Assembly: GCF_964213995.1 (NCBI RefSeq) | Contig: NC_135823.1 | Coordinates: 53,010,001 to 53,074,000 of the forward strand | DNA length: 64,000 nucleotides | Source: Mustelus asterias | Taxonomy: Eukaryota | Reading direction: 5' to 3' | In this document: positions 5,361 to 64,000 of the stretch, piece after piece | How positions within the stretch are numbered: the first letter of the stretch is position 1 | How the letters are laid out: the number at the start of each line of letters is the position of its first letter | Notes under the pieces: generated by a model | Told to the model about the DNA's origin: nothing | What the model saw: only the letters and a program-made list of their open reading frames with translations | Database searches by the model: none | Made by a program: the position numbers and the translations under genes

Positions 5361-5993
5361 CTTCAGAAGCAGTATTAAGCAGTGAGGTTTGATTGCAGCA
5401 AGTGAGGTCTACAAGGCCCACTGTAGTGACCAATTAGCAGTAGAGTTAATTTGGCTGTACAGTGAGAAAAACACACTGTTTAAGGTAGCAGTTTAAGGTG
5501 AGCAGTCTCCCAAATATTTTGCCACTGTTAAACTACGAAAGAGCGTTCTGAGTGGCAACTCTGTCAACAAATAATGCAATGACTCATGTCACCAAGCAAT
5601 GAAAAACAATAAATGTTTCCTACAGATAAAACTGCTGTAAAAAATAACCTGGAAATGACTCATGTGGACAGAAGCTGAGAAATGACTTCAGATATTATCT
5701 TCTTAATGAACCCTCGGGGTGGTTCAGTTACAGAAAGGGCGATCAGGGAACACAGGATGGGGACGGGAACAGCAGGAGTTCATCAAAATTGAAAAGAAAA
5801 AGCTTGCGTTTTTGCAACCCGTTTCACAATCACATCCCAAAGCCAGTGAAGTACTTTCTTAGAAAAAAAGGCACACCAATACAACAGCAAAATACTGCGG
5901 ATGCTGGAAATCTGAAATTAAAAAAAGGGAAGTGCTGGAAAGACGTAGCCGAACTGATCTGTGGAGAGAGAAACTGAGTTAACATTTCAGGTT

Positions 5994-6195
5994 ACAAGCA
6001 AATTACTGCGGATGCTGGAATATGAAACCAAAAGAGAAAGTGCTGGAAAATCTCAGTAGGTCTGGCAGCATCTGTAAGGAGAGAAAAGAATTGACATTTG
6101 ACAAAAGGGGTCGTCTGGACTCGAAACGTCAGCTCTTTTCTCTCCTTACAGATGCTGCCAGACCTGCTGAGATTTTCCAGCATTTTCTCTTTTGG
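5994..6195. mobile_element. Penelope-like fold-back element, family 2 (degenerate hammerhead), 14-bp TSD
   Basis: Inverted arms ~6026-6096 / ~6128-6196; TAACATTTCAGGTT at 5980-5993 and 6196-6209. Confidence 0.7.
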
Positions 6196-6481
6196 TAACA
6201 TTTCAGGTTTTCATTAGAACTTTGAAAGTTTAATAAAAGTTGCAATGTAACAAATCAGAGCAGTCAACTCGTTAGCAATGAGATAGATGGCCAGATAACC
6301 TGCTGCTTATTAAGTGATGTGGGGTGAGGATTGAACAGTAGCCAGAGCAACAAGGTGGACTTGCCTGTTCTTGTTCAATTGATATCACGGGATCTTTCAC
6401 TCCCACCTGAGAGGGCAGGCAATATGCTATAGTTAAGGAAACCCACCAACTCCTCTACTTTCTCAGGAGGCTAAGGAAATT

Positions 6482-6826
6482 CATAGAATCATAGAATCCT
6501 ACAGTGCAGAAGGAGGCCATTCGGCCCATCGAGTCTGCACCAACCACAATCCCACCCAAACCCTATCCCCAGAACCCCACATATTTAACCCGCTAATCCC
6601 TCTAACCTATGCATCCTGGACTCTAAGGGGCAATTTAGCATGGCCAATCAACATAACCTGCACATCTTTGGACTGTGGGGTGGAAGCCGGAGCACCCAGA
6701 GGAAACCCACGCAGACATGGGGAGAATGTGCAAATTCCACACAGACAGTGACCCAAGCCGGGAATTGAACCCAGGTCCCTGGAGCTGTGAGGCAGCAGTG
6801 CTTACCATTGTGCCACCGTGCTGCCC
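6482..6826 (-). mobile_element. HE1 V-SINE, CR1-like tail
   Basis: Full-length family match. Confidence 0.9.
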
Positions 6827-7109
6827 TTTTTCATATCCACTACGATTCTCACCAGCTTTTACAGATGCACCATGTATCACAGCTTGGTATGGCTTCTGCT
6901 CTGACCAAGACCGCAAAGAACTACAAAGGGTTGTGAAAATAGCCCAGTCCATCACGCAAACCAGCCTTCTATCCATTTACTCAGTCTACTCAGTCTCGGA
7001 AAAGCAGTCAGCATAATCAAGAACCCCACACACTCTGACATACTCTCTTCCACCTTCTTCCATCAGGAAAAAGGTACAAAAGTCTGAGAACACATACCAA
7101 CCGACTCAA

Positions 7110-7440
7110 GAGGGTGGCACAGTGGCACTGCAGCCTCACAGCGCCAGGGATCTGGGTTCAATTCCAGCCTTGGGTGATTGTTTGGAGTTTGCACGTTCTC
7201 CCCCTGTCCGTGTGGAATTCCTCTGGGTGCTCCGGTTTCCTCCAACAGTCCAAAGTGTGCAGGTTAGATGGATTGGCCATGGAAAATTGCCCCTTGGTGT
7301 CCAAAGATGAGTAGGTTCAGGGGATTGGCGGGGTAAATATGTGGATTTATGGAAATAGAGCATGGGTAAGTTGCTCTGTCAGAGAGTCGGTCCAGACTCA
7401 ATGGGCCAAATGGCCTCCTTCTGCAATGTGGAGGTTCATT
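7110..7440 (+). mobile_element. HE1 V-SINE (more diverged)
   Basis: Family match. Confidence 0.8.
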
Positions 7441-7871
7441 GAAGAACAGCTTCTTCCCTGCTGCCATCAGAATTTTGAATAGACCTGTCATATATTAAGC
7501 TGATCTTGTTCTACACCCTATCTGTAACTGTAACACTATATTCTGCACCCTCTCCTTTCCTTCTCCTTTAATTACTCTATGAACGGTATGTTTTGTCTAT
7601 ATAGCGCGCAAGAAACAGTACTTTTCACAGTATCCCAATACATGTGACAATAATAAATCAGATCAAAATCAAATTGTCTAAGAGGTAGCACTTTCAACAG
7701 TGTGTCACACCCTCAGCGCTGCACTAAAGTGTCAGTTAACATTAGATGAAGTGGGGCTTAGTTGGACCCACAACCCTCTGACTCAGGAATATATGTTACC
7801 TACTGAGCGCATGGAAAAATGTGAAATAAAACCTGAAATACTCCGATTACATGATGCTAGTGAAATTCCAT

Positions 7872-13427: not shown

Positions 13428-13508
13428 TGAGATGCTGCCAGACCTGCTGAGATTTTCCAGCATTTTCTCTTTTGGTTTCAGATTCCAGCATCTGCAGTAA
13501 TTTGCTTT
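13428..13508 (+). mobile_element. Penelope-like family 2 3' fragment inserted in an HE1 SINE, 12-bp TSD
   Basis: TATTTAGCCTGA at 13416-13427 and 13509-13520. Confidence 0.7.
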
Positions 13509-13957
13509 TATTTAGCCTGACACGAAGGGACAATGTAGCATTGCTAACAACCTCACCCGAACATCTTTGGACTGACCAATTGAGTACATCTGACTTAAAC
13601 GTGGCTCACAAGCTTTTCAGGGGTTGTTTCTGAAAGGACAGATCACAAAGTGATAATCTCGGGGCAGGGACAGTGTTCTGGAGTGTGCAAAAAACTCACA
13701 AACCCAAACTCCTGAGAAATTCACTCAGATTAATTAGCTACAGGTATGGATTCCTACATATGTGCAGGGATCACCGTTCTCAATTAACTTGTTTAAACTG
13801 CAGGGGCTACACACTACATGTCCAGTTAGAGTCATCCTTTCCCACAGGGCCTGCCCATGCTTCTTTCCCAATGTAATGTTTAAATGTCCCGCAGCTATGC
13901 TCCTGATGCCAATAGTCTGGGGCCATCCTCAAATTCACTCCCAGGCTTGCGTTGAGT

Positions 13958-14190
13958 TAAAACGGAAAATGCTGGAGAATCTCAGCAGGTCTGACAGCAT
14001 CTGTGGAGAGAGAATAGAGCCAACGCTTCGAGTCTGGATGACCATTCATCAGAGCTGAAGACAAGGAAAATAGGACAGGATTTATACTGTGAGGATGAGG
14101 GGTGGTGGTGCTGTAGTTGATTGGAACGGCATAGACAAAAAGGACAAAGGGAATCTAAATGGTGATGATAAAGGCTAGGAATGATGCTCA
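13958..14190 (-). mobile_element. Penelope-like family 2 fragment with mutated hammerhead core
   Basis: Minus strand CTGATGA-A-TGGTC-ATCCA-GACTC-GAAG-CG-TT. Confidence 0.6.
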
Positions 14191-14574: not shown

Positions 14575-14656
14575 AGTAAGAAGTCTCAAAACACCAGGTT
14601 AAAGTCCAACAGGTTTAGTTGGAATCACGAGCTTTTGGAGCACTTCTCCTTCATCA
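14575..14656 (-). mobile_element. Penelope-like family 1 fragment
   Basis: Matches the arm of the 17439-17660 element. Confidence 0.65.
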
Positions 14657-17438: not shown

Positions 17439-17660
17439 GTAAGTAGTCTCACAACACCAGATTAAAGTCCAACAGGCTTATTTGGTAGCACGAGCTTTCG
17501 GAGCGCTGCTCCTTCATCAGGTGAGTGACTCACTCGCTCACCTGGTGATGGGGCAATGCTCCGAAAGCTCATGCTACCAAATAAACCTGTTGGACTTTAA
17601 CCTGGTGTTGTGAGACTACTTAATGTGCCCACCCCAGTCCAATGCTGGCATCTCCACATT
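17439..17660. mobile_element. Penelope-like fold-back element, family 1, with ~35-nt unpaired tail
   Basis: ~88-bp inverted arms; imperfect TSD TAATCATAACACA/TAATAATAACACA. Confidence 0.75.
17489..17523 (-). ncRNA. minimal type I hammerhead ribozyme motif
   Basis: CAC-CUGAUGA-A-GGAGC-AGC-GCUCC-GAAA-GC-UC-GUG. Confidence 0.7.
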
Positions 17661-17802
17661 ATAATAATAACACAATAGAGAAACTCTTTCTGTAATTTCC
17701 CAATTATTTTTCTCCCATGTTGCTTGTAACCATGTCACCTTTAATTCCTGGAATCTTCAAGACAATCCGGGAGACTTGGCAACACCACAACGACCAGACT
17801 AG

Positions 17803-19562: not shown

Positions 19563-19957
19563 CATCCCCCGATTATTGTAACTTTTTGGGCAGTACTTCA
19601 AACATAGTGGGAGAACTGTAACTTCAGTGAAAGTCCAGAGTAACAACAGTTCTCCAAGTCTCTGCTGATTTTCCATCGGAGTTACAATGGATGATGGGGA
19701 GAAACTTGGGAAAGTTCAACTCTCAGTACTTTCAATCTTCCATTCTAAGTAAAAATATCCACACATATAAAAGCTGAATGAATGACAACATGTATTTCGA
19801 TCTAAAGTTTTGGAAAAGTATCCCATCAATATTCTCGGTCAGAAGGATGCGAATACAACTCCCTTCCCAAGGTCTGAGTACAAAATCCAAGCTGATACAT
19901 CCCGTAATGTTAGAAAGCCTTATTGTTGGGATACTGCCCTCTGTAAAGTGCCTTCAG

Positions 19958-20660
19958 TAATGTAAAGATAGTCATTGACTTCAGGAAGCGTAGTGGAGGG
20001 CATGTCCCTGTCTACATTAATGGGGACGAAGTAGAAATGGTCGAAAGCTTCAGGTTTTTAGGTGTCCAGATCACCTACAACCTGTCCTGGTCCCTCCATG
20101 CAGACGCTACAATTAAGAAAGCCCACCAACACCTCTACTTTCGCAGGAGGCTAAGGAAATTTGGCATGTCCGCTACAACTCTCACCAACTTCTACAGATG
20201 CACCATAGAAAGCATTCTTCCCAGTTGTATCACAGCTTGGTATGGTCCCTGCTCTGTCCAAGACCGCAATAAACTACAAAGCATCGTGAATGAAGCCCAG
20301 TCCATCATGCAAAACAGCTTCCAATCCATTGACACTGTCTACACTTTCCTCTGCCTAGGAAAAGCAGCCAGCATAATCAAGGACCCCACGCACCTCGGAC
20401 ATACTTAAAAAGATATAGAAGTCTGAGGTCATGTACCAACTGACTGAAAAAACTTCTTCCTTGCTGCCATCAGACCTTTGAATGGACTGTCCTCACATTA
20501 AGTTGATCTTTCTCTACACCCTAGCTATGACTGTAACATTACATTCTGCACCCTCTCCTTTCCTTCTCTATGAACGGTATGCTTTGTCTGTAAAGTGCAC
20601 AAGAAACAATACTTTCCACTGCATACTAATACATGTGACAATAATAAATCAAATCAAATC
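19958..20660 (+). mobile_element. Rex1/Babar-clade LINE 3' fragment
   Basis: ORF 20037-20408 VESFRFLGVQI...KKAHQHLYF.RRLRKFG...FYRCTIESIL; tail gtgacaataataaatcaaatcaaatc. Confidence 0.8.
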
Positions 20661-22356: not shown

Positions 22357-22589
22357 TAACAAAAACAGAAAATGCTGGAAAATTCTCAGCAGGTCTGACT
22401 GCATTTGTGGGGAGAGAATAGAGCCAACGTTTCAAGTCTAGATGACCCTTCATCAGAGCTCTGGCGGAGGGTCATGTAGGCTCAAAACGTTGGCTCTATT
22501 GTCTCCCCACAGATGCTGAAAGACCTGTTGAGATTTTCCAGCATTTTCTGTTTTTGTTGCAGATTCCAGCTTCCGCAGTATTTTGCTTT
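22357..22589. mobile_element. Penelope-like fold-back element, family 2
   Basis: ~100-bp inverted arms centred on AGCT (22457-22460), unpaired 3' tail, degenerate TSD CATTCATTGTCCAT/CATTTATCGCCCAT. Confidence 0.75.
22422..22460 (-). ncRNA. minimal type I hammerhead ribozyme motif (family 2)
   Basis: AGCU-CUGAUGA-A-GGGUC-AUCUA-GACUU-GAAA-CG-UU-GGCU. Confidence 0.65.
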
Positions 22590-23139
22590 CATTTATCGCC
22601 CATCCTTGGTTGTTCTGAGGAGGTGGTGGTGGACCACCTTCTTGAGCCATTTCAAAAAAACAGCGAACAAAGTGGTTTGGGACTTCAATCACAACATGTA
22701 ACTGCAGCTTTCACTTCTGAAAAAGACATTCATGAACGAGTTGGGTTTTTGAAACAGTCTTGTGATTACTTTTACTAATTCTTGTAATTGCAAGGTCAAA
22801 TTAAAACAGAATTGAAATTCTCAAACAGCCATGGTGGAATTTGAATTCCCATCCACTCAATCAAGAGTCCAGTAACATAATCAAGGCTACCATATCCACA
22901 TTCCTGATGTGTCAGTCATGGCAGGAAAGACAGATTTTCAACCGAAAGATGGGGAAACAGCAAAGCTAAGTTAATCCCTCGCGTTGTTCCGTGCCGCAGC
23001 GATGCAACTTCCATAATGGGAGCTGAATAGCAGTATGGAGCAGACATTCAGGTCGATTCTCCCCGCAGAAACCCAAAAGAGGCCAACTACCACATCCTCA
23101 CCATTACGAAATTAACAGACTGGGGATGGGCAGGTTTGA

Positions 23140-38023: not shown

Positions 38024-39741
38024 TCAACAAAGTAACTTTGAGTGCTGGTTCAAAATCATTTTTTATATATAAAGACAATTTCCTTTGAACTTGCAATACA
38101 TTTTTAAAAACAGAGAAAGCATTCAACGTTTATTTTATCATCAGGCACATAAAGGAGGAAGACATTTGGGAGAAAAAAAAACTGCGAACACCTTTTATCC
38201 CTGTTATCAATGCATTTTCTGTTAATTTTTTCTTTTTTCACCCTTCAGCCTGCAGGCTGGCTTGTTGAAAGTGCAGGTTCATGATACCAACAATCATCTC
38301 TTTCTTGTTAGCTAGCCAGTCGCATGTGCGCCTAATGGCAAATGTCAGCTGGCTATTCAACTGTCAGGGCTTCAATGTCACCCCAATCTTGTCGTCACCA
38401 TGACATCCATACTTTCCACCAGGAGTCATCGGAAAGAGATCAACAGAAAGGAACCTAGTTAATTTTTTTCCCTCCCTCTCCCTGAATGCATCAGGCCCAT
38501 TGTATGAGTCCCTGCATTAGATCGGTTAACTCAACATGGATCAGACATGAAGCCTGGGACCTTTATCAATTATATGGTTCAGCCCCACACAAAAAAGTGC
38601 ATTTTCTGTTGAACACCCACTCTGGAATCAATTATATGATCAGTACCATGCAAAAGAGTGCAGTTTCCTGCTAAGCCTTTACACTAGCATTATTAAATAT
38701 GTTTGTTGTTGATATTTTATTTGAAAGGAAAATTGACAAAACAGCAGACAGAAATGTATCTAAGGTGACCTAGCATGGAGCAAATCTGTGCCCACGCAAG
38801 CCCACACATGGCACATGTACATTTCTGAAATTCATCTTTAGTCTCAATTCAATCAAAAAAGTATTTCTCCTTCTTTCAATTCAAGTACATTGGTTTTTAT
38901 TCAACTGAATATCAGGTGAAAAGAGGCATATTGTGACCTCTACACTAAATGGCCAAAGCAACAATACAAAAGAGATCCAATAAAAGATTACAGGGTAAAA
39001 AATGCTACTTGTTGCAAGAACCTGCAGTTCGCAGGCTGATTAATAGTAGGCAACACTCAGGTGTAAAGTCCCCTCGACATATCTGTTATTACACAGAAAA
39101 ACTTTAAAATGCATTAATCATTACCTTTAGATACAGCCAGCAGGGCTGTGTACATTGCACTTGCTAACACACCACTACAATCACACCCAGAAACCATACA
39201 ATGGAAGTGTGCCATTCATAACTTGTACCACATACACGTGGTTGAAGAAGCTCTGCTTTCATTCCAGTGACTTACTTCACGCAGATGTTCACAGATTCCT
39301 GTTCAACCCACATTTTCTCTTCTCCCTAACTTGTCTCTCTGTTCAAATAGTTTTTTTTCTGTATTCTTGTTATCCTCCCTACTCTTGAAGGTTGAAATTA
39401 CTACTGAAATGATTTCATACATGTAGGCAGACCAATTTTGTTTTCACAAATGAGCACTCCTCATTATGCAGGTCATGATACCAATTAGAAGCAGGCACCC
39501 TGCCTGAGTATTTCCTTTGCTAGCCCCAAAATACCTACTGGAGAACCCAACTGTCTCCTTGGCTTGAGGACTGCTAAGAGAGTACAGACCACCATCAATG
39601 TTCAGAGCTTCCTGATCTGTATGGCTCACTACCACACTGGGCAATGCGTTAACCCATCCAACCTTTTGAGTCACGGGAACCATTTCATGCTGAGGGTAAT
39701 TCATTCTGTCTGTCTTCTTTCAACTAACTGGTTTAAAATTA

Positions 39742-39950
39742 ATATGGAGATGCCGGCATTAGACTGGGGTGGGGCACAATAAGAAGTCTCACAACATAAG
39801 GTTAAAGTCCAACAGGTTTATTTGGAATCATGGGTTTTCAGAGCGCTGCTCCTTCATCCACTCACCTGACGAAGGAGCAGCGCTCCGAAAGCTCATGATT
39901 CCAAATAAACCTGTTGGACTTTAACATGGTGTTGTGAGACTTCTTACTGT
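39742..39950. mobile_element. Penelope-like fold-back element, family 1 (PDGFA intron 3); hammerhead core on + at 39866-39894
   Basis: Inverted arms; CTGACGA-A-GGAGC-AGC-GCTCC-GAAA-GC-TC; TSD-like TGGTTTAAAATT/TGGTTTAACATT. Confidence 0.75.
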
Positions 39951-43400: not shown

Positions 43401-43961
43401 ATATTTAAGCTGGTGCTACATTTTGTTTTTACAGTAAAAAAAAGTGTGAAAAGGACAGTATGGAAAGGGATAATCTACTCAATTACTAAATCCACTGGCT
43501 ATACAGAGCCAGACCGACCAAGAAAGTCCCAGACTCAATCTTTAGCCTGTGAAATATTACCTGAACGTGCTTGGATAATGGTTATAATACAAGAGTTAGC
43601 TGTGGGAGTCGGGATGAAAGAGAATGAACAGGGCTCCAGCACCTGGTCACTATCTAATGACTTTAACTGGAAGGGTTCATGTGCATGTCAGATACAGAGA
43701 GGATGCTCACTGGTGGTCAGATAGCCTGCCAATACATACTATCTGGACTTGCTCATGACGACAGGCTGCCAGCATCCATGAAGCTATACCCCAGGTTGGG
43801 TCGGTGCCTTCAGGAGAGACGGGGAGAACAGGATTTAATTGGCAAAACCACTTTAAGTAGCAATTTGTGAGCGGTAAACGCCTGCAGGGAATTCTATTTC
43901 TAAAAGAACCATGCTAAAGAAAATGCTAGAAATACTCAACAAGTCTGGGAGCATCTGAGGA

Positions 43962-44237
43962 TGGTAGTCATGATGTGGAGATACCGGCGTTGGACTGGGG
44001 TAAACACAGTACGAGTTTTAACAACACCAGGTTAAAGTCCAACAGGTTTATTTGGTAGCAAATAGCTTTCGGAGTGCTGCTCCTTCGTCAGATGGAATGG
44101 ATATCTGCTGTCTGCAGATATCTGATATCTGCAGATATCCACTCCATCTGACGAAGGAGCAGCGCTCCGAAAGCTAATGGCATTTGCTACCAAATAAACC
44201 TGTTGGACTTTAACCTGGTGTTGTTAAAAACTCTTAC
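43962..44237. mobile_element. Penelope-like fold-back element, family 1, inserted in a family 2 relic (intron 3)
   Basis: Inverted arms; TSD AGCATCTGAGGA (43950-43961) / AGCATCTCAGGA (44238-44249). Confidence 0.75.
44144..44180 (+). ncRNA. minimal type I hammerhead ribozyme motif
   Basis: CCAU-CUGACGA-A-GGAGC-AGC-GCUCC-GAAA-GC-UA-AUGG; stems I and II fully paired. Confidence 0.72.
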
Positions 44238-47001
44238 AGCATCTCAGGAGACAGAAACAGACTTGAGGGCAGGATTTTCAGGTCTCCCCTTCCCCCGGAC
44301 TGAAAATTCCTGCTTTCTTTCCATCCCAGCATAAAATCGCTGCGAGGTCGGGATGGACAGAAACCTGGAGGGAATCCCTTCCTTGCAATGTCACAACCCC
44401 CTTCCCTAACCTCACTTCCCCAAAAGCCTGTCAGTGTAAAATTCAGGCTAGAATGGACTTATAGCACTCTGAACCTTGCAGTATTTCTTTGCAGTTTTAA
44501 GTTATTTTATTTTGTCCTTGCATCTTAATTCTCCAGCAAAAATAAAGTCTTCCTTGCTAAGGAGTCAGCTTCTTTGCCTCTGCCAACGGTCCTCATGAGG
44601 TGACAGCTAGGATCCACTGAGATAGCTCACTCTCCAACCAACACGTTCCCCTGCTAGTTTATGATAGAAAAGAGGCGCACTATGTGGTGACTCACGGACC
44701 CTGATATTCGAAAGCATACATGTTTCACCTACAGCGCCCTCTCATTTATATTACTTATCAACAAGTGCCATTTCAACAAGCCTGCACCTCCTTTCCAGGT
44801 TGGAAAACACACCAGCACAGACTGGGAAGTTAGTGACGGGGCTATATCACTACATTCCTTATGCTTTGACACCTCTCTCCTTGCAAGAAGGACTCCACAG
44901 ATTTTAGAATCACCCATATCATCTCAAGATAAGATCACTGCTTCACTGTTTAAAACAATTTAGATAAAGTAACAAAATAGCACGTTTTCACCCAATGTAA
45001 AAATGCAATATGACTTCAGTTTAAATATTATGAACAATTTAAAATCCGGTATGCTTGTGTTATAAAACGTATTCTGTCTAGTCAGCATTGCATTTGCATT
45101 TTAACATATTTTACCAGTGTCACAAAATCATGGATTTGTAAATGGAAGATTTGTAAATGGAGATCTGCGAAAGAATCTTATGGAGTCCCTGAAGCCATTT
45201 TATTCTGCACATGTTGACTTTCTAGCAAATTATTTGTTGTTTATCTTTCTTGTATTCATTCATGAGGTGTGGACATTTGTAGCCCATCCCTAACTGCCCA
45301 TTTTAAGAGTCAACCACATTGCTGTGGATCTGGAGTGACATGTAGGCCAGGTAAGGATTGCAGGTTTCCTCCCCTAAAGGGCATTAGTAAATCAGATTTT
45401 TTTTTTACGACAATTGACAATGGTTTCATGATCACCTTTAGACTTTACATTCCAGATTTTTTAAAAATCGAATTCAAATTTCACCATCTGTCATGGTGGG
45501 GTTAGAACCTGGGTCCAGGGAGCATTACCCTGGGTCTCTGGATTACTAGTCCAGTGACAATACCACTACACCACTGCCTCCTGTAACCTATTTTCTGTAA
45601 TGACAGTTTTCCCTCAAGTAATTGGCACTCGCGGGAAATTCAGTGAGGATGTGATTCTGAGGCAGAGCCTTGTCAGTAGCAACCATGATATTGAGCATCA
45701 GTGCTTTGGAGTTATAATCTTTTTTCTGACGTACATCTGTTGGAGCTGTACCCTAGATGTGTGGCCTTGATGAATTTGTCCTACTGTCTTTTGGGACTTA
45801 GAGGTGGATGGGGTGGGCTGGGGGGGGGGGGGGGGGGGCAGATGTTCCCTCAGGGACATCTCAATATTTTTGTGAACATACACAGAGGAAAATATTCCAA
45901 TAGCACCATCGTGTATGCAAGGTATTGAAAGCTTGCAAATACCACCCGGATGGCTCACTTATAGGTTGGCAGCTTAATGTGGAACTGGACTGGGGAAGGG
46001 AAAAGCAAAATCAGCCAGGTCCCTGTTCGCTAACTAAATAGCCTGCTAAAAAGATAAGTCATACAGACAGCAAGTGTGGCAGGACCAGCCTAAAATGTGA
46101 TGTCCCCATGGTGGAACAGCCAGCCGACAATCACTATCTAGTTGTGCACATGAGGAATGGGCATGTGAAGATTTACTGGGGAGTGGGTGGAAACATACGA
46201 AGAGGAGGGAGAGTTGGAAAAACAAAGAAGAATTCCAAGTAGCATATTTCTTACATCATGGCTTTCTTCTTATGTTGATTCTACTGAAATTACATATGGT
46301 ATATCAAAGGGCAGCAGCATCAGCGAGTTCAGATAACAGTATAAACAGCAAGAGAAGCCTGAACACTTTGTCAATATTAAGTCAACTGCAAGGTGTGCTA
46401 TGTCCTTGAGCCAAACTGCCGCTGGAGGTATTCCAGATAACATTTGCAGGTGCAGAACAGCTTACGCCATTTTCTGCATGGTTTGGGAAGTGGGGGTGGC
46501 TTGGTGAGGTGAGAACAGAGACAGATTGCTAGTTTCAACAGTCATATGACATGAACTACATTGATAAAGCACTTGTATTCCATTGCATCATACAACAGAA
46601 TTGTGCATCCAGCGCACACTGCAAAATCACATCTCAAACCACCAACTAAAGGAACATGAGCTGAGAATTTGTGTAATTTCAAAAGTTAAACAAAGTCCCG
46701 TGTCACAGTGAAATCACCTAACCGGAATGACATCTGATCTAATCTACAACCAATTCTCAAAGCAAAATTAGAATCACATTGCCCCTGTGCAATTCTGCAA
46801 TGCTGAAAAATGTTGCCTGATGCAAAAGAACCATGAAGAACGGTTCAATGATAGTAATCACTTCCATATTCACATTGTTGGTAAATCACTGTAATAAGAA
46901 ATTGGTAGGTGTATCAAAGTAGGTATCACTGAGTAACAAAAATAAAGTTGTACTCAGGAATGTCTGTTGCAAATAAAATGATAAAACTAAACTAAACTTA
47001 C

Positions 47002-51745: not shown

Positions 51746-53110
51746 AAGAACATAAGAACATAAGAAATAGGAGCAGGAGTAGTCCATCTAGCCCCTCGAG
51801 CCTGCCCCGCCATTCAATAAGATCATGGCTGATCTGACGTGGATCAGTACCACTTACCCGCCTGATCCCCATAACCCTTAATTCCCTTACCGATCAGGAA
51901 TCCATCCATCCGCGCTTTAAACATATTCAGCGAGGTAGCCTCCACCACCTCAGTGGGCAGAGAATTCCAGAGATTCACCACCCTCTGGGAGAAGAAGTTC
52001 CTCCTCAACTCTGTCTTAAACCGACCCCCCTTTATTTTGAGGCTGTGTCCTCTAGTTTTAACTTCCTTACTAAGTGGAAAGAATCTCTCCGCCTCCACCC
52101 TATCCAGCCCCCGCATTATCTAATAAGTCTCCATAAGATCCCCCCTCATCCTTCTAAACTCCAACGAGTACAAACCGAATCTCCTCAGCCTCTCCTCATA
52201 ATCCAAACCCCTCATCTCCGGTATCAACCTGGTGAACCTTCTCTGCACTCCCTCCAATGCCAATATATCCTTCCTCATATAAGGGGACCAATACTGCACA
52301 CAGTATTCCAGCTGCAGCCTCACCAATGCCCTGTACAGGTGCATCAAGACATCCCTGCTTTTATATTCTATCCCCCTCGCAATATAGGCCAACATCCCAT
52401 TTGCCTTCTTGATCACCTGTTGTACCTGCAGACTGGGCTTTTGCGTCTCATGCACAAGGACCCCCAGGTCCCTTTGCACGGTAGCATGTTTTAATTTGTT
52501 TCCATTGAGATAGTAATCCCATTTGTTATTATTTCCTCCAAAGTGTATAACCTCGCATTTATCAACGTTATACTCCATTTGCCATATCCTCGCCCACTCA
52601 CTCAGCCTGTCCAAATCTCTCTGCAGATCTTCTCCGTCCTCCACACGATTCACTTTTCCACTTATCTTTGTGTCGTCTGCAAACTTCGTTACCCTACACT
52701 CCGTCCCCTCCTCCAGATCATCTATATAAATGGTAAACAGTTGCGGCCCGAGTACCGATCCCTGCGGCACGCCACTAGTTACCTTCCTCCAACCGGAAAA
52801 ACACCCATTTATTCCGACTCTTTGTTTCCTGTCGGATAGCCAGTCCCCAATCCACTTTAACACACTACCCCCAACTCCGTGTGCCCTAATCTTCTTCAGC
52901 AGCCTTTTATGGGGCACCTTATCAAACGCCTTTTGGAAATCCAAAAACACCGCATCCACCGGTTCTCCTCCATCAACCGCCCTAGTCACATCTTCATGAA
53001 AATCCAACATGTTCGTCAAGCACGACTTTCCCCTCATGAATCCATGCTGCGTCTGATTGATCGAACCATTTCTATCCAGATGCCCTGCTATCTCCTCTTT
53101 AATAATAGCT
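51746..53110 (-). mobile_element. 5'-truncated CR1-clade (HER1-like) LINE: RT C-terminal half plus 3' UTR
   Basis: ORF 52120-53037 has LDFQKAFDKVPH, GVPQGSVLGP and FADD motifs. One nonsense codon (TAG at 52122-52120) precedes the in-frame continuation 51844-52116. (TTCTTATG)n tail. Confidence 0.95.
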
Positions 53111-55533
53111 TCATTCTCTAATATCTAGTAAACTCAAAAATGCTGTTTTCAAATCCCATTTTGTTATCAGGGAGAAACAAGAGTCAAGTTTAAGCCTGTC
53201 CTCATTCACCCTCCATCTGCACTTCCAACAGTAGTTGCTGGACCAAGATCAAGGCAGGAATCCTGTTTGATGTTTCTCCCTGCAAAACTGGGGTAGTTTG
53301 TTTGGGGGTGGGGGTGGTAGGGGGGGTTCTGGTATAGTTAAATGACTCAAATGCTCTGTCAGCGCACACTTCCTCTGAAAGTGTCATTTTTATGATTCTA
53401 GCAGTTACCTGAATGATGTGTCCCTCTGTTTCCTTACTCCACTCCCGTTCAGTGAGGTCATGATTTATTTAATCGATTTGATCTCGGATTTGTGTGTGCA
53501 TGAATTTTACTAACTTGGAAATACTATTACTGTTTATGTTAACATGACATCTTGTGTATCTAGTTGTTGCCAATTACTACATTGCACAAATCACAAGCAT
53601 CTCGGAGCTTTGTTTATATCCAATCAGATGTGATACATGAGATACAGCTTTATTTTACATATTATCAGACTTGCTTCTGGCCACCATTTCACTTCAAAAC
53701 AGGCAGCACAAGTCTGCAAGCGACCTGTCAAAACTTGCATGCAGGTCATTTGTGGCCTGCCCATGTGCTGCAGTCTGTTTGTATTCAGTCTGAAGCTGCC
53801 CAAATTGCAAAAGGAAAATAAAAACAAGAGAAGCAAGTCCTCCACCTGTGTTCTCTACCAATAACTGCAACAACTAGAACAGAAGATCTTGATGGACCTT
53901 TTTATGAAGATTTTATTGTATAGAAAATGTGCCTGACCTGGATACCACCACCACCACCTCTCTCTTTGAGGGGGGGAAAAAACATTGTGACGTTATACAA
54001 TATCTTATCGCTTGGAATTTTGGTTAAATTGTAATCATGTTCTTTAAAAAGTATCCAATTGTTTGGAATGTGTTTGCAATTTTGATAAACATGCTGAACA
54101 GAGTTAAATCTTTGTGAGTTAATTTACAATGTGACTATTGGTATGGGTTTTAATTTTAATTTACTATTCTGACACTGTGGCATGAGTTCATCTGTCTTTC
54201 AGATGATGCCTTAAATCGAGGTTTCAGCTGCTGCCTCAGTTGGATGTAAAAGGTTTCATGGAACTATGTCAAAAAGAGGAAGGTGCCCGACTACAATTAT
54301 CGCTGAAATGCCATCACTGAAACAAATTATCTGGTTTTGCTCATGTGGGACTGAGCTGTGTACAAAAGTGGTTGCTGTATTTCTGCACAAGTACAAAAGT
54401 ACTTTGTTGGCTGTGGTGCTTTAGGACATCTCAGGGTTGTGAAAGGCACTATATAAATGCAATTTTTCTGCTTTGCGCAAGTATTTCAAAAAGTCGCCCT
54501 CTTGAGTGTCCGGTTGCAGTTAATTCCATTCGATTGACCAAAGGCTTCTGCTGTTTAGAATGGCATGTGGATAGGGGGGAACGTGTTCATGTTCTATGAT
54601 GGGATGAACAAGTAGTTTCTTCTGCAGCAACACCGTGGGCTCAAATAACAGACTCCACTGTTTTCCGCTACATTTCCAAGCTTATCGCTGTTACTGAAAC
54701 GGTTTCAGAATTTTACAGGGTTTTTTTTACTGCATTATTTTATGTCTTTCATTGTAATTTCAGTAAAACTTTCGACCATAAAATGCTTTTGAAGTTAGCT
54801 GTCTGCAAGTGCCTGCGTGTTATGACTATCACCTAACATTTTCTGAACGTACTCCACAAATGGCTGGCCCGGGATGTGGGGGAGCAGGGGGGTGGGGTTG
54901 GGGTGCTGTCTAAATCGAGGACATCTTCAATGCAAATATTTTGCATTAAGGGAGACAATCCTTTCTCCTGTTAAACGGCACGAATATGTTCATTTGAGGG
55001 CGTCTCGAGTGCTCGCTGCCAGCTTTTGAAGTTTTGTGATTCACATGACACACACATCAACCGTCTATGCAAATATAGAATCTGAATCAGTGCTTGTAGC
55101 ATAAACAGCCACAGCCACCAGTCAGTGTGGGACGGCGAACGCGCCTTGCTAGCATGGACTGGCTCCAAGAATGCAGTTTCAAGCCCTTCACCGATTTTCT
55201 TTCTTTTGGGGGGGGGGGGCGTAAAATGGATTACCCCGGCCCTTCAAAGCGATATATATACATATTGTAAGGGTTGCAATGTTACAGGGCGATTTCAGGG
55301 GTCGCTAGCTGCCTCTCTCTCTGCGTTGAAGCCTTTGCTTTTTATGGCTCTCCATTCTGTGGATTCTGACCCCTTGCAGACTTGTTTTTCATCACAACGA
55401 GAAACAATTCATAAACATGACAGCCATTGTGAAATGTGCGACTTAAATGTTACAGGACAATAAACGTGCTTCCACGGGTAAGACAAAGAGGGGTAGGTGA
55501 TATATATATTATATACATATAAACATAATTTAC

Positions 55534-57447: not shown

Positions 57448-57647
57448 NNNNNNNNNNNNNNNNNNNNNNNNNNNNNNNNNNNNNNNNNNNNNNNNNNNNN
57501 NNNNNNNNNNNNNNNNNNNNNNNNNNNNNNNNNNNNNNNNNNNNNNNNNNNNNNNNNNNNNNNNNNNNNNNNNNNNNNNNNNNNNNNNNNNNNNNNNNNN
57601 NNNNNNNNNNNNNNNNNNNNNNNNNNNNNNNNNNNNNNNNNNNNNNN
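57448..57647. other. assembly gap (200 N)
   Basis: Exactly 200 Ns, probably a placeholder of unknown true length. Confidence 0.99.
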
Positions 57648-59155
57648 GACGGGGGTGGGGGGGGAGAGAGAGGATGGGGGTGGGGGGGAGAGAGAGGAGG
57701 GGGGGGTGGGGGGAGAGAGAGGAGGGGGGTGGGGGGAGAGAGAGGCGGGGGGTGGGGGGAGAGAGAGGAGGGGGGTGGGGGGAGAGAGAGGAGGGGGTTG
57801 GGGGAGAGAGAGGGGGGTGGGGGGAGAGAGAGGAGAGGGGTGGGGAAGAGAGAGGACGGAGGTGGGGGGAGAGAAAGGAGGAGGGTGGGGGGAGAGAGAG
57901 GAGGGGGTTGGGGGAGGGAGAGGAGGGGGGTGAGGGAGGAGGGGGGTTGGGGGGAGAGATAGGAGGGGGGTGGGGGGGACAGAGGAGGGGGGTGGGGGGG
58001 AGAGAGAGGAGGGGGGTGGGGGGAGGAGAGGAGGGGGGTGGGGAGGGAGAGAGAGGAGGGGGGTGGGGAGGGAGAGGGAGGGGGTGGGGAGGGAGAGGGA
58101 GGGGGTGGGGAGGGAGAGGGGGGTGGGGGGGAGAGAGAGGAGGGGGGTGGGGGGGAGAGAGAGGAGGGGGGTGGGGGAGAGAGAGAGGAGGGTGGTCGGG
58201 GAGAGAGAGAGGAGGGTGGTCGGGGAGAGAGAGGGAGGGGTGTGGGGGAGAGAGTGGAGGGGTGTGGCGGGAGAGAGGAGGTGGGGTGGGAGGAGAGTGG
58301 GGGTGGCGGGTGAGAGGAGGTGGGGGTGGGGGAGAGAGGAGGTGGGGGTGGGGGGAGAGAGGAGGTGGGGGAGAGAGGGGCTGGGAGAGAGGCGGAGAGA
58401 TGTGAGGGGAGGTGGGGGGAGATGTGAGGGTAGGTGGGGGGAGATGTGAGGGGAGGTGGGGGGAGATGTGAGGGGAGGTGGGGGGAGAGGGAGGGTGGGG
58501 CTGAAGGGGGGGTGAGGTGGGGAGAAGGGGGTTGGGAAGAGAGGAGATGGGGGCAGAGGGGCGGTGGGGGCAGAGACACGGTGATGGGGAGGTGAGAGGA
58601 GGTGTGGGGGAGAGGGATGGTGGAGGGAGATAAGGGGGACAGGGACGGTGGGGGGGAGGTGTGAGGGAGAGGATGGGGAGAGGGTATGGGGTGGGGGTTG
58701 GGGAAGGGAGAGGGGGTTGGGGTATAGAGGGGGAGAGGGGAGGAGGTGGGGGAAAGAGGAGGGAATGGAGTGTGGGCGGGAGGGAGTGTGGGTAGGAGAG
58801 GATGGGGATGGGATGTGGGGAGGAGGGGGTGGAAGGGTGGAGGGAGGGGATGGGGGTGGGGCCTAGAAGTGAGGTTGGGGAGGGAATGGGTGGGATTGGG
58901 GGAGTGAAAGTGGGGGACAGGGGTTGGGGAGAGGGGCTGGGGCAAGGGAGGGTGGGGAGATGGGGAGGGGAGAGAATGGGTTGGGGCAGGGGAAGAAGGG
59001 GGAGGGGAGCGTTAGAGGTGAGAGATGGGAGGGGGAAGGCGGAAGGAGGTGTAAGATTGTGGGAGAAAGAGGGAGGAATAGGTGAGGGGGAAGGGGGTGG
59101 TGGAGAAAAGGAGGGGAGGGAGTGAAGGGTGAGAAATGGGGGAGAATGAGGGACT
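57648..59155 (+). repeat. G/A-rich low-complexity minisatellite (approx. GGGGGTGGGGGGAGAGAGAGGA units; later GGGGGAGATGTGAGGGGAGGT)
   Basis: Degenerate ~20-24 nt purine-rich tandem units visible directly. Confidence 0.95.
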
Positions 59156-59319
59156 AGGCCCAATATCAATCCCACCTTGCTTACCCCTACCCCCTCCCCC
59201 AGCTGAACCACCACGCCCCCCCTTTTCACACCCTCCCTTTTCACATCCCCTCACCCCCCTTTTCACACCCTCCACGCCCCTTACAAACACCCCCTCCCAG
59301 ACTCCCCCCCCCCCCCCCA

Positions 59320-59622: not shown

Positions 59623-59754
59623 TAATAAAAGCAAAACACTGAGGATGCTGGAATCTGAAACAAAAGCAGAAAATGCCTGAAAATCTCAGCAGCTCTGACA
59701 GCATCTGTGGGGAGAGAACTGAGCTAACCTTTGGAGTCCAGCTGATCCTGCGTC
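59623..59754 (-). mobile_element. Penelope-like family 2 fragment, 10-bp TSD
   Basis: AATAGCTTCA at 59613-59622 and 59755-59764. Confidence 0.65.
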
Positions 59755-60429
59755 AATAGCTTCAAATTGCTGGGGTTAGTACAATTGTTCTGTTTGGGTG
59801 TGAAATCTACAATGCACATGGCTTTGATCTGAACCCCTTTCGGAGCAATTGCATCAGTTACCAGATGAAAGGAGACATGCAAACTGCTTATTGCAAGATG
59901 AGAGATTGAGCAAATTAGCGTGGCAGCACAGAATCAACTTGCTTTTTGATAATTCTGTGGTGTGGCGCCCATCGGCGAGACTTTGATGGGGGTGGGGGGG
60001 GGCGAAATGGGAAAGGTGCAAAGTACACTGTTAATGTGTTTTCATTGTCATGACACACTCCCCACCAACACATGGGGCTGGGGATTAATTTAACTCATCA
60101 ATTTTATTAAAATTGTCAGTTTATGGTCTTAATTGCTGTGCACATATTCTTCACATGAAAATATAAGTAGCATTGAAACAAGATGAACAAGGCTAAGCAA
60201 AACAAACCACTAAAGAATTTGCAAACAGGACAGGAAGGTTTCCTGCCCCTTTGCTTACATCACCACATGGGGGTTTTGTGTAGCTTTTGGGATGCACAGT
60301 GAAAGCCATTAGGCACGATTTTCCCACCCCACCACGCTGGTCGAGTAGCAGGTAATGAAATGTAAACACAGTAAGAAGTTTAACAACACCAGGTTAAAGT
60401 CCAACAGGTTTATTTGGTAGCAAAAGCCA

Positions 60430-60466
60430 CACAAGCTTTCGGAGCCCCAAGCCCCTTCTTCAGGTG
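60430..60466 (-). ncRNA. minimal hammerhead motif in a family 1 variant (element ~60361-60470)
   Basis: CAC-CUGAAGA-A-GGGGC-UUGGG-GCUCC-GAAA-GC-UU-GUG. Confidence 0.65.
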
Positions 60467-61439
60467 AGTCACTTTTATTAACGTAATTATTAACGTAATC
60501 AGCCTCGTGCCAGGGAACAGCGATTTTAATATTGATGAGTTCATTTACATCTGTTCAGCAAGCCCGGGACGGTATCATCCGGGCTCATTTAGGTTTCCAA
60601 CCTGGTTGGTGGAGGACCACACCAGCGGTGATCACAGATGGTCCCCAACAACGGGGACCAGATGTGATGACCTCACTGGTGGGACCAGAGGCCATTGAGC
60701 CCCCCCCCCCGGGAGATTGGAGATGGGGGCAGTGCCCTTGGGCAGTGCCAGCCTGGCACCCTAACAATGCCAACTTGGCACACTGACAGTGCCCACCAGG
60801 CACTGGCAGTTCCAAGGGGCAGGGCCTCAGGGGGTGGGGCCAGATGAGGCAGAGCCAGCCCGAGGGGAGGAAGGTGGAGAGCTCTGCATATACTAGGAGA
60901 TTGGCACATGCCCGATGGCCCCCTGAGCACTCTGCTGCCGGCCTCTTCAGCAGGATTAGGCTACCCCCTGCCCCACTGGTCGTGAATCGACTGGCAGCCT
61001 CTGTATTGCACAGAGTGCCGTAAATTATCAAAACTCAGCTCACCCAACAAACAAGTGGGAAAACCTCCCATTTTTCCAACCATTGGGCACTTAGATTTAC
61101 TTTGGGAAAATCGCCTCCAAATAGCTTTAGTCTCAGTCTCTGCAACCGTACCATCTCCAGCAACAGAATTAGTCGGTGGTAATTTGGTATGAAGCTCAAA
61201 CCAGTCTTCATCATGGTGTGATCACACTTAAAATCCACATAAATCTAGCTCCTATTTTAGTTGCGGATGTGGAGTGATTTCAACATAGGATGTTGTTGAG
61301 AACGATAGGTCAGTTATTAGTGTCAGCTTGGGACCAGTGGATAGAATGCTGGCACTTCTGAGTTAGAAGGTTTTCAGTTCATGTTGCCCTCCAGGACTGG
61401 AACACAAAAACCAAATCCCATATATGGTCGGAGGTTCTA

Positions 61440-62008: not shown

Positions 62009-63339
62009 AGGTTCCGATGGGATGATGACCCAAGGGCTTGTTTGCACTCTCAAGTGGACATAAAAGACCCTACTACAGCCACTATTTTGGAAAAGAGCAG
62101 AGGGACTCCCCCTCCTGAGCTGACCAATATTTATCCCGCGTCATCACAAAACAGCTTACATGGGAGCTTGCTGTGCGCAAATATTGGCTAGCGTGTTTCT
62201 GACATTTAAACAGACTGCACTTCAAAAGTGCTTTATCATCTGTAAAGTGTTTTGGGAGGACCTGTGTTCATGAGAGATGCTGTATAAATGGAAACCTTTA
62301 ATGCCCTTGAAAATCACTATTAATTTATAATGTAACTTTCTATTTGTTGAATTGATAGCAGAAAAATACAAGGTCATTTGCTCACAAGTTCCATCTGTCT
62401 CCTATCATGAGAAATACGTCAGTATGCATCATATTAAGATTGATTCACCATGGGGGCTGCATTTTCCCTCCCTCCAGGCAAGCATCAAGCAGGCGGCAGT
62501 TACCATCTCACATCTGCCCCTGAATCATAGCGATAGGCAGACAAGTGTTCTAGACACTTGCATCAATATAGTATGTAAATCTGCTGGCAAAAGACAGATG
62601 AGCAATAGTAACAGTGTAGAAATCTTGGATGAGATCCATTGATATATACAAACCAGCCTACGGCATCTGATACAGCATGGGTGTAGACCTGGCCTGGTCA
62701 TTTTCAAGCAATAGTGTCTCTCCCAGGTCAAAGCTTCTAGGATCATTCTTCAAGATAAGCGTAGGCCTAAATTCCTTCTACCAGCCCCCCACCCCCATCC
62801 TAAAACAATGCCTCCAGTAATTACTGGGTCAACCCCAGTGTGTGATGGAATACTCACCACTTGGATGAGTGTGACTCCAACAACACTCACCCAGGACAAA
62901 GCACTCCACCTGCTTAGACCCCATTTAGGACATGAAACATTTACTCCCTCCTACACTAATGCACTGTGGCAGCAGTCTGTACTCTACTCAATGCATATCA
63001 GCAACTCATCAAGCCTCCTTCAACAGCATCTTCCAAACCCACGACCTCTAACACGCTGAAGACCAAGGTCAACAAGCACATTGGAACACCATTACCTGGT
63101 TCCCCATCCAAGTCACAATATATCACCTTTCCTTCCTTGTCGCTGAGTCAAAATCCTCCCTCCCTGTGGGAGAACCTCCCACACATGACTCTGACAGCTC
63201 ACCACCACCTTCTCAAGGGCAATTAGGGATGGGTCAGTAAATACTGACCATGAATGAATGGGTACATCCTCACTTCAAGCATACAGAATAGGAAAAGCAT
63301 TTTTATATCTGTGTTTAGAACCAAGGCCAGGATACATTC

Positions 63340-63620
63340 AGCCCATCGAGCCAGCACCAAAAACAATTCCACCCAGGTCTGATCCCCAGAACTCCATATA
63401 TTTACCCTGCTAGTCCCCCTGACACTAAGGAGCAATTTACCATGGCCAATCCACATAACGTGCACATTTTTGGAATGTGAGAGGAAACTGGAGTACCCAG
63501 AGGAACCCACACAGACATGGGGAGAACGTGCAGACTCCATACAGACAGTCCCCCAAGTTTGGAATCGAACCTGGGTCCCTGGCGCTGTGAGTGCTAACCA
63601 CTGTGCCACCGTGCCACCCA
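63340..63620 (-). mobile_element. HE1 V-SINE
   Basis: Family match. Confidence 0.8.
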
Positions 63621-63744
63621 CTTCACATCCTTCCGAAAGTGTGGTGCCCAGAATTGGACACAGCACTCCAGTTGAGGCTGAACCAATGTTTTACTAAGGT
63701 TCACAATAACCTTGCTTTTGTATTCTATGCACTTATTTATGAAA

Positions 63745-64000
63745 CGGCACGATGGCACAGTGGTTAGCACTGCTGCCTCACAGCGCCAGGGACCCGGGTT
63801 CAGTTCTGGCCTCGGGTGACTGTATGGAGTTTGCAAGTTCTCCCCGTATCAGTGTGGGTTTCCTCCCAAGTTCAAAGATGTGCAGGTTAGATTGATTGAC
63901 CATGTTAAATTGCCCTGTTGTGAAGGGGGTTTAGCAGGGTAAATATGTCAGGTTATGGGGATAGGACATGGGTGGGATCACTGTCGGTGCAGGCTTGATG
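63745..64000 (+). mobile_element. HE1 V-SINE (runs off window)
   Basis: Family match. Confidence 0.85.

What the first reader, a model, noticed from the sequence alone, without database searches (positions are those of the whole stretch)
44144..44180. Two families of short retro-inserts carry minimal hammerhead ribozymes with covarying stems
Seen: the core CUGANGA-A-stemII-GAAA-NN-UH recurs at 17489-17523(-), 22422-22460(-), 39863-39897(+), 44144-44180(+) and 60430-60466(-). Changes fall where a hammerhead tolerates them: N7 is U/C/A; stem I is CAC/GUG, CCAU/AUGG or AGCU/GGCU; stem II is GGAGC/GCUCC, GGGGC/GCUCC or GGGUC/GACUY; stem III is reduced to a palindrome (AGCU or ACGU). Established: minimal type I hammerheads with a palindromic stem III that act as dimers occur in the terminal repeats of Penelope-like elements. 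Inference: about 10 copies in 64 kb point to a very large shark population of non-coding, ribozyme-bearing inserts with several structurally constrained subfamilies, which may be poorly described.
Basis: partly seen in the sequence, partly recalled or inferred. Interest (0 to 1): 0.72.

Follow-up and report, generated by a model that had tools for sequence, protein, structure and literature searches.

The report
Shark Penelope stubs marking transcription start
These small hammerhead-shaped motifs are the cut-short ends of two very abundant Penelope-like jumping genes of an already described kind, and many copies stop just upstream of the predicted ribozyme, about 30 bases below a TATA box, which likely records where the element's RNA begins.

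Summary
The five cores are real, as is their covariation. They are not a separate class of non-coding inserts. They are the truncated 3' ends (pLTRs) of two Penelope-like element (PLE) families. Family A has an intact 893-aa RT + GIY-YIG copy 37 kb from the window. Family B links to a second, about 30%-identical ORF. Many copies are head-to-head fold-backs with a one-sided tail (36 of 38 pairs) and a 10-14 nt TSD (25 of 38), the published PLE layout. Minimal hammerheads in PLE pLTRs are published (PMC4209133), and this scan reported the same family on other DNA. Three points appear in none of the papers or notes I saw. (1) 5' ends pile up about 35 nt upstream of the cut, about 30 nt below a TATA box, in both families. 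(2) In A4/A5, 69 of 100 listed junctions carry a G just before that start, against about 0.33 background; B2 shows no excess. (3) One B subfamily has a fixed U3-A8 core pair (97 of 100 listed). Likely reading: RT starts at the 5' pLTR and runs off a capped, uncut RNA. Cleavage and the start site are untested.

The parts
43962..44237 (.). Family A (subfamily A1) fold-back insertion: inverted arm with tail and the first 3-4 codons of the ORF on the left, tail-less forward arm on the right; 12-nt TSD (one mismatch) at 43950-43961 and 44238-44249; inserted in a family B remnant (43918-43957)
44144..44180 (+). Minimal type I hammerhead motif (stem I CCAU/AUGG, stem II GGAGC/GCUCC, palindromic AGCU); predicted cut after 44176
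44059..44095 (-). Second hammerhead core in the inverted arm; a 6-nt deletion right after the predicted cut removes the 3' strand of stem I
17439..17661 (.). Family A (A5) fold-back; arms start 7 and 5 nt before core C3; tail on the right arm; 13-nt TSD (one mismatch); hammerhead at 17489-17523(-)
39741..39949 (.). Family A (A4) fold-back; tail on the left arm; 12-nt TSD (one mismatch); hammerhead at 39863-39897(+) with a broken stem I closing pair
60359..60469 (-). Family A (A2) single arm without tail; starts 6 nt before C3, the position of the inferred transcription start, with a G at 60470; hammerhead at 60430-60466
14577..14656 (-). Family A (A4) single arm with a damaged core, about 10-nt TSD
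22358..22595 (.). Family B (B1) fold-back centred on the AGCT palindrome; hammerhead at 22422-22460(-); tail on the inverted arm
5995..6196 (.). Family B (B2) fold-back with the U3-A8 core variant at 6098-6134(+); 16-nt TSD (one mismatch); inserted in an older B remnant (5883-5987)
13430..13514 (+). Family B arm that starts downstream of the ribozyme, with tail; 13-nt TSD (one mismatch)
13955..14075 (-). Family B arm with a damaged core (GAAA to GAAG), no tail
59624..59752 (-). Family B arm with tail and a decayed core; 12-nt TSD (one mismatch)

Best explanation
The motifs are minimal type I hammerhead sequences in the 3' pseudo-LTR of two RT + GIY-YIG Penelope-like retrotransposon families, and the window copies are truncated insertion stubs, likely made when reverse transcription starts at the pLTR-ORF junction and runs off the 5' end of a mostly uncut RNA. 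Shown: the link to ORFs, fixed outer ends at two points about 35 nt apart (with or without the tail, which ends at the ORF's ATG), TSDs, head-to-head arms, and the pile-up of inner ends. Inferred steps: (1) Pol II starts about 30 nt below a TATA box, 6 nt before core C3 in family A and 4 nt before it in B2, so the RNA opens with stem I of the hammerhead. (2) The protein nicks both target strands about 12-13 nt apart. (3) Each 3'-OH primes cDNA at one of the two internal sites. (4) cDNA primed at the first pLTR of the transcript can run only about 100-135 nt, to the capped 5' end, sometimes copying the cap as an extra G; longer copies would need a tandem or read-through RNA. (5) The two cDNAs are joined head to head. 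The ribozyme likely works in the source element's RNA, as a dimer or with protein help, and only a minority of templates were already cut. Odds: truncated PLE ends about 0.95; two-strand priming about 0.75; capped-start run-off about 0.6.
For: ORF link, family A: an intact copy at G000:C23:52967565-52973023 has an inverted 1332-bp copy and a direct 992-bp copy (both 100% identical), an 893-aa ATG ORF and a pLTR inside a 12-nt TSD. RVT_1 4e-10; GIY-YIG 1.4e-4 on the C-terminal piece P0001. 14 of 15 RT-anchored loci have the hammerhead arm downstream. Family B: 16 of 20 loci anchored on the EN-coding region have the B arm downstream on the same strand, at about 25-35% aa identity to A (read from the output). 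Architecture in 1.264 Mb: 122 A arms and 38 head-to-head pairs; tail on exactly one arm in 36 of 38 (p 5e-9); same subfamily in 33 of 38 against 0.20 by chance; TSD of 10-14 nt in 25 of 38 against 0 of 38 controls. Inner ends: 5.0% per nt at -33..-39 from the cut, against 0.53% at -24..+4 and 0.37% at -50..-100; with one arm per pair p 5e-11. A4/A5 long copies carry TATATA-like boxes at -65..-69 in 10 of 11, and 20 of 36 arms end at -33..-39, against 7 of 79 in the other subfamilies (Fisher 2e-7). TATA-less A1 (0 of 16 with a box) ends are spread over -33..-53. B long copies have TATAAA at -62..-65 in 9 of 20. In B2, 44 of 100 listed arms start at -34..-36, 29 exactly at A(-35), none at -37..-43 (hand count). 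Base before A(-35) in A4/A5 junction copies: G 69, A 17, T 14 of 100 listed, of 372 matches (hand count), against a background of 0.30-0.35. At cut-site junctions, G is 2 of 100 (hand count). PMC11167929 (parts 1-2 of 4 read) shows both-strand nicking, two internal starts that define the tail, a need for the ORF's first 172 nt, products that shorten with the RNA's 5' end, and uncut RNA as the main substrate. PMC4859970 (passages) names untemplated G as the cap signature of LINE-1.
Against: No RNA evidence: no start site, cap or cleavage was observed. B2 shows the sharp edge but no G excess (7 of 29 at -35), and its AGCT palindrome could itself favour junctions there. In 30 A4/A5 loci the DNA before the G could be traced in only 6, and only one G was clearly untemplated. 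The inverted arm is G-rich (0.42), although 69 of 100 still exceeds that. A2/A3 have a TTTATAT-like box but are mostly long (21 of 40) with no -35 peak. A4/A5 look older, so age or a short master copy could be confounded with the TATA box. The cut-site signal is a step, not a clean peak: 926 junctions at 0/-1, 223 at -4/-5, but 1310 at +3/+4 (about a third of the listed 100 are microhomology junctions or 1-nt deletions), against 19,637 uninterrupted copies. In the 122-arm sample the cut-site rate was not raised. One pair of neighbouring fold-backs shares an identical junction. PMC3846280 (passages) prefers self-priming on an antisense template.
Confidence: 0.72

Rival explanations
1. The short copies are an independent SINE-like or retrozyme-like family: short RNAs from solo pLTRs, or from palindromic masters, are mobilised in trans by the PLE protein.
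For: Only 4 of 36 A4/A5 arms are long. Solo arms that keep the TATA box and tail could be transcribed. One identical junction recurs with different TSDs. bioRxiv 10.64898/2026.07.22.740005 (part 1 of 5 and passages) derives retrozymes from pLTRs.
Against: 23 distinct inner sequences among 24 short fold-backs, with 19 lengths. Every subfamily also has copies reaching the 3' UTR, and sizes run continuously to about 3 kb. Stubs that start at -35 lack the TATA box. No tandem 170-400 nt arrays appeared among the arms. This rival still needs an RNA 5' end at -35.
Confidence: 0.12
2. The pile-up at -35 comes from reverse transcriptase stalling at RNA structure, or from microhomology at junctions, on long transcripts; it is not a transcription start.
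For: The edge lies at the 5' strand of stem I. B has an AGCT palindrome there. Fold-back junctions elsewhere do use microhomology (listing).
Against: Folding five long A4/A5 copies gave no shared helix ending at -36. By eye, the edge also occurs in copies joined to host DNA. It depends on subfamily although the ribozyme is alike. The G excess stays after conditioning on ACT, ACTC or ACTCA microhomology.
Confidence: 0.2
3. The inverted arms come from self-priming (snap-back) on an antisense template, as proposed for rotifer Penelope elements, and not from priming at both target nicks.
For: PMC3846280 (passages) reports palindromes at inverted junctions. Several B copies are centred on AGCT.
Against: The outer ends of both arms are fixed at the two initiation sites while the inner ends vary and are often unequal (for example -126 against -34), and the tail is on one arm only in 36 of 38.
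Confidence: 0.15
4. The motif no longer cleaves and is kept only as a structural or protein-binding element.
For: Catalytic mutants did not impair insertion in vitro in PMC11167929, and activity was low in PMC4209133. No clean cut-site peak here.
Against: The core is invariant across two families with about 30% protein identity, and the 3-8 pair changes on both sides (U3-A8 in 97 of 100 listed B2 copies, G8 in none). Junction counts rise about fourfold from -4/-5 to 0/-1.
Confidence: 0.15

Closest known systems
Minimal hammerheads (min-HHR) in pLTRs of metazoan PLEs (PMC4209133; parts 1-2 of 4 read, supplements not seen)
   Same: Type I, no helix III beyond a palindromic 15.2/16.2, a bulged base before helix II, a G10.1-C11.1 pair, many consensus families per genome, mostly in truncated copies, some on opposite strands close together; a U3-A8 variant was described in Schistosoma.
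   Different: Helix II is 5-6 bp, not 7-8. The counts here are far larger (about 1e5 estimated, against 4,000 in coelacanth and 9,000 in Xenopus). Sharks are not named in the parts I read.
Neptune/Nematis-type C-terminal EN+ PLEs (PMC8557442, passages; PMC3846280, passages)
   Same: Single RT + GIY-YIG ORF with a CX2-5CxxC linker, partial tandem, inverted 5'-truncated copy, one-sided 30-40 bp tail, TSD. A TATA box and an Inr-like TCACT were noted in the rotifer pLTR.
   Different: TSDs here are mostly 11-13 nt, against 8-10 in the rotifer examples. The passages do not link truncation points to the promoter. Clade placement by tree was not done.
PAc, Poseidon of Anolis carolinensis (PMC11167929; parts 1-2 of 4 and passages)
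   Same: Two internal RT start sites define the tail, both strands are nicked and extended, and the pLTR carries a hammerhead.
   Different: PAc is a Penelope/Poseidon-clade element whose ORF starts inside stem II. Here the ATG lies at the tail's end, about 100 nt after the cut.
Non-LTR retrozymes (PMC7229834, passages; bioRxiv 10.64898/2026.07.22.740005, part 1 of 5 and passages)
   Same: Non-coding, type I hammerhead, related to pLTRs.
   Different: Retrozymes are tandem 170-400 nt repeats, expressed as circular RNA, with mostly canonical hammerheads. These copies are dispersed single or inverted arms with TSDs and continuous links to an ORF.

Membership tests
EN+ Penelope-like element | Single ORF with RT and C-terminal GIY-YIG | tested here: met
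   893-aa ORF; RVT_1 4e-10; GIY-YIG 1.4e-4 on P0001, not reported on the full-length scan; family B only as broken or partial ORFs
EN+ Penelope-like element | pLTRs from a partial tandem, with an inverted 5'-truncated copy | tested here: met
EN+ Penelope-like element | 30-40 bp tail at one end only | tested here: met
   36 of 38 pairs; the tail ends at the ORF's ATG
EN+ Penelope-like element | Target site duplication | tested here: met
   10-14 nt in 25 of 38 pairs against 0 of 38 controls
Neptune/Nematis clade | CX2-5CxxC zinc-finger-like linker between RT and EN | tested here: met
   CX4CX2C in family A and family B; definition from PMC8557442
Neptune/Nematis clade | RT phylogeny with named Neptune references | not tested
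   No named Repbase references were on hand; the hits carry no clade names
min-HHR of PLEs | Core CUGANGA/GAAA/UH, bulged base before helix II, G10.1-C11.1, palindromic 15.2-16.2 | tested here: met
   the closing pair is G-U in the 22422 copy
min-HHR of PLEs | Helix II of 7-8 bp as in Schistosoma | tested here: not met
   5-6 bp here; the paper gives this as a Schistosoma trait, not as a descriptor limit
min-HHR of PLEs | Self-cleavage as a dimer or with protein | not testable with these tools
   Only indirect junction counts
Non-LTR retrozyme | Tandem 170-400 nt units each with a hammerhead | tested here: not met
   Arms are single or inverted in 1.264 Mb; the only direct repeats seen belong to ORF-bearing copies
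Non-LTR retrozyme | Abundant circular RNA | not testable with these tools
   No usable raw RNA reads

The most novel reading that the evidence does not exclude
A large share of the 10^5 shortest shark Penelope copies are 'strong-stop' products. Reverse transcription starts at the 5' pLTR-ORF junction and runs off the capped 5' end of an RNA that begins at the hammerhead's own stem I, leaving the transcription start, and often the cap as an extra G, fossilised in the genome. Promoter strength would then set the share of stubs. The ratio of starts at -35 to starts at the cut would give an in vivo measure of how rarely the ribozyme had cut the template.
Probability: 0.55. Interest if true: 0.6.

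Novelty: new member of a known kind. Interest (0 to 1): 0.4.

Why it matters
The motif as reported is known biology. What could matter is that this genome holds about 10^5 copies plus an intact, very young source element, and their ends give statistics on the PLE cycle, which is still unresolved. If the -35 edge is a capped start, it argues for a sense, mostly uncut template primed internally. That runs against the antisense self-priming model and against cleavage being an obligatory step. It would also explain why PLE genomes fill with solo and inverted pLTR stubs. It places the ribozyme where a cut would remove the cap, which is a concrete idea for what the hammerhead does. The fixed U3-A8 subfamily is natural evidence that the catalytic core is under selection in a vertebrate PLE.

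Tried and rejected
Rfam scan: only weak miRNA-type hairpin matches, all below gathering score, no hammerhead model. tblastn of the family A protein against the window found no PLE coding remnant. tRNA scan was empty. RNA runs: no RNA holder listed. The one raw-read run laid 0 reads, which is no test, and two contig sets held relatives of the element but cannot show starts. The earlier notes' claim of a sharp peak at the cut site was reproduced only as a step, because my +3/+4 control was higher and contaminated. A downstream baseline was not obtained. A 3' splice site as the cause of the edge was considered: B has a polypyrimidine-AG there, but splicing would start copies at -33, and family A lacks a consistent AG. 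The cap-G test in B2 was negative. The first script pass on the A4/A5 loci failed on a search-range slip and was rerun. Breakpoint positions were shifted by gapped references, so the core-anchored values are used. In one search, 21 of 41 B arms had no callable core and were left out. The B loci L021-L045 were not used for breakpoints because the query biased them. For the claim that start-site or cap-G footprints are not described for PLEs, paper searches were made, and note searches were. None of the listings or passages showed it, but the library lacks most subscription papers, and I opened no supplements (those of PMC4209133 and PMC11167929 may bear on shark motifs and copy ends).

Full report
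Observation. The five motifs are at the stated places with the stated stems. A structural descriptor gives 6 minimal cores in the window, 4 of them with a stem I of 3 bp or more, against 0 in each of 100 shuffles. The predicted cut of the headline copy is after 44176. The 39863 copy has a mismatch at the stem I closing pair. Five loci are fold-back palindromes of 170-270 bp. RNAfold pairs 75-84% of their bases, at -131 to -184 kcal/mol, so a read-through transcript would be predicted to sequester the ribozyme.

What the inserts are. A genome search with the 44-kb arm returned copies whose upstream DNA encodes a GIY-YIG domain and an RT. Neighbouring DNA holds an intact copy 37 kb left of the window, at G000:C23:52967565-52973023. 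It has an inverted 1332-bp copy with tail, a direct 992-bp copy, an 893-aa ORF starting at the ATG where the tail ends, and a final tail-less pLTR; the repeats are 100% identical and the whole sits in a 12-nt TSD. The linker has CX4CX2C, the Neptune/Nematis mark of PMC8557442 (passages). The closest named proteins are from sharks (83-94% identity), then turtles (42-46%). Family B links to a second ORF of about 25-35% identity with the same linker; the B arm lies downstream in 16 of 20 loci. Both families are therefore 3' ends of coding PLEs.

Abundance. Eight fixed 50-kb blocks gave 12 strict cores, 21 A arms and 12 B arms. That extrapolates to about 110,000 cores (57,000-193,000), 190,000 A arms and 110,000 B arms; this is rough, since density varied from 0 to 7 A arms per block. 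Exact-match floors are 19,637 (A1), 14,568 and 6,495 (B2 pattern).

Architecture. In 1.264 Mb (the eight blocks, two C1 regions chosen for density, and the window with 200 kb on each side) there are 122 A arms and 38 head-to-head pairs. The tail is on exactly one arm in 36 of 38 pairs. The two exceptions are a three-arm element and two arms of different subfamilies. The arms share a subfamily in 33 of 38 pairs, and 25 of 38 have an exact 10-14 nt TSD against 0 of 38 controls. Inner junctions differ in 23 of 24 short pairs. This is the inverted-pLTR-plus-tail layout of PMC8557442 and PMC3846280 (passages). It fits the two internal RT start sites and both-strand nicking shown for PAc (PMC11167929, parts 1-2 of 4). 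Priming at both nicks is inferred. Earlier notes of this scan reached the same reading on other DNA; they are not independent support.

Constraint on the ribozyme. Of 13 variants seen at 3 or more loci, 11 keep all stem II pairs and the three inner stem I pairs; the two exceptions fit CpG decay, and one further variant has C3-A8. On ten hand-picked representatives, 117 of 120 cells pair and 8 of 12 pairs change on both sides. Subfamily B2 has U3-A8: 97 of the first 100 listed matches (of 2,786) are U3-A8, 3 are C3-A8, and none has G8. PMC4209133 (parts 1-2 of 4) reports this swap in Schistosoma. The constraint acts on source elements; single genomic copies decay (only 85 of 163 arms keep the core shape).

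Cut-site lead. I took this lead from earlier notes and tested it with matched patterns in subfamily A1: 926 junctions at 0/-1, 223 at -4/-5, 1310 at +3/+4, and 19,637 uninterrupted copies. About a third of the 100 listed +3/+4 matches are one recurrent microhomology junction or 1-nt deletions. The result is a roughly fourfold step at the cut, compatible with some pre-cut templates but also with stalling at stem I. The 122-arm sample shows no excess there.

The main edge. Inner ends concentrate just upstream of the ribozyme: 27 events at -33..-39 (5.0% per nt), against 0.53% and 0.37% per nt on either side. The effect depends on subfamily. In A4/A5, 20 of 36 arms end there, with the mode at the A of CC|ACTC, and 10 of 11 long copies have a TATATA-like box at -65..-69. 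In the other subfamilies 7 of 79 end there. A1 has no box (0 of 16) and its ends are spread. A2/A3 have a weaker box and no peak, which counts against a simple rule. In family B, unrelated at the DNA level, 9 of 20 long copies show TATAAA at -62..-65, and 44 of 100 listed B2 arms start at -34..-36, with none at -37..-43 (hand count). The 30-nt TATA-to-start distance is textbook knowledge, recalled. PMC3846280 noted a TATA box and an Inr-like TCACT in rotifer pLTRs, while PMC2377424 (passages) found a TATA-less internal promoter in Drosophila Penelope.

Cap test. In A4/A5 copies that start at A(-35) with a purine two bases upstream, the adjacent base is G in 69, A in 17 and T in 14 of 100 listed (372 in all, hand count). 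Background is 0.30-0.35, also after conditioning on ACT-type microhomology, and 0.42 within the inverted arm. All 50 long reference copies have C there. At cut-site junctions, where the RNA would be uncapped, G is 2 of 100. An untemplated G is the accepted cap mark for LINE-1 (PMC4859970, passages). Against this: the flank could be traced in only 6 of 30 loci, with one clearly untemplated G, and B2 shows 7 G of 29. The window's 60-kb copy starts at this position with a G.

Mechanism. Shown: PLE origin, fixed outer ends, TSDs, the edge, the G excess in A4/A5. Inferred: Pol II starts at stem I; the protein binds the ORF's 5' part (shown for PAc only) and primes at the 5' pLTR-ORF junction, the only complete start signal in a monomeric transcript; cDNA runs off the cap after 100-135 nt; two such cDNAs are joined head to head. 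The ribozyme likely cuts as a dimer or with protein, in a minority of templates. No RNA data could test this.

Verdict. The finding as posed is a new member of a known kind: minimal hammerheads in PLE pLTRs, here in a shark, and already noted many times by this scan. The start-site and cap-G footprint did not appear in my paper searches or note searches, within their limits. Interest 0.4; the novel reading has probability 0.55 and would deserve 0.6.

Noticed in passing
G000:C23:52967565-52973023 (L307): An intact, apparently very recent family A element: open 893-aa ORF, repeats 100% identical, 12-nt TSD. A close relative with the same ribozyme variant lies about 25 kb further left.
   Followed up: yes
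G000:C1:460.6-460.9 kb and 462.4-462.7 kb (L203): Two fold-backs 1.8 kb apart share 164 identical bases, including the inner junction and a private stem I change, but have different TSDs and the tail on opposite arms. Gene conversion or re-use of one template; unexplained.
   Followed up: partly
window 44059-44062: The inverted arm of the 44-kb copy lacks 6 nt immediately after the predicted cut, as if RT had jumped across a cleaved site. Single case.
   Followed up: no
window 43918-43957 and 5883-5987: Two insertions (44 kb and 6 kb) landed inside older family B remnants.
   Followed up: partly
L127-L156: Copies starting at the cut site often carry short templated filler at the junction, and many listed genome matches are perfect fold-backs overlapping by two bases at the cut.
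   Followed up: partly
L040, L110-L126: Family B has a polypyrimidine tract and AG directly at the 5' strand of stem I, like the intron end reported for Drosophila Penelope in PMC4209133; splicing not tested.
   Followed up: no
window 52120-53124(-): 333-aa open stretch of a LINE reverse transcriptase (RVT_1 8e-27); CR1-like by recall.
   Followed up: partly
window 19947-20408(+): Retroelement-like ORF fragment with an ALKBH8_N Pfam match (7e-10).
   Followed up: no
window, about 16 sites (e.g. 4253-4589, 6426-7673, 63335-64000): A roughly 300-bp SINE-like repeat, with several neighbouring copies in inverted orientation.
   Followed up: no
window 57448-57647 and 57648-59158: A 200-N assembly gap next to a 1.5-kb low-complexity C/T-rich repeat.
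   Followed up: no
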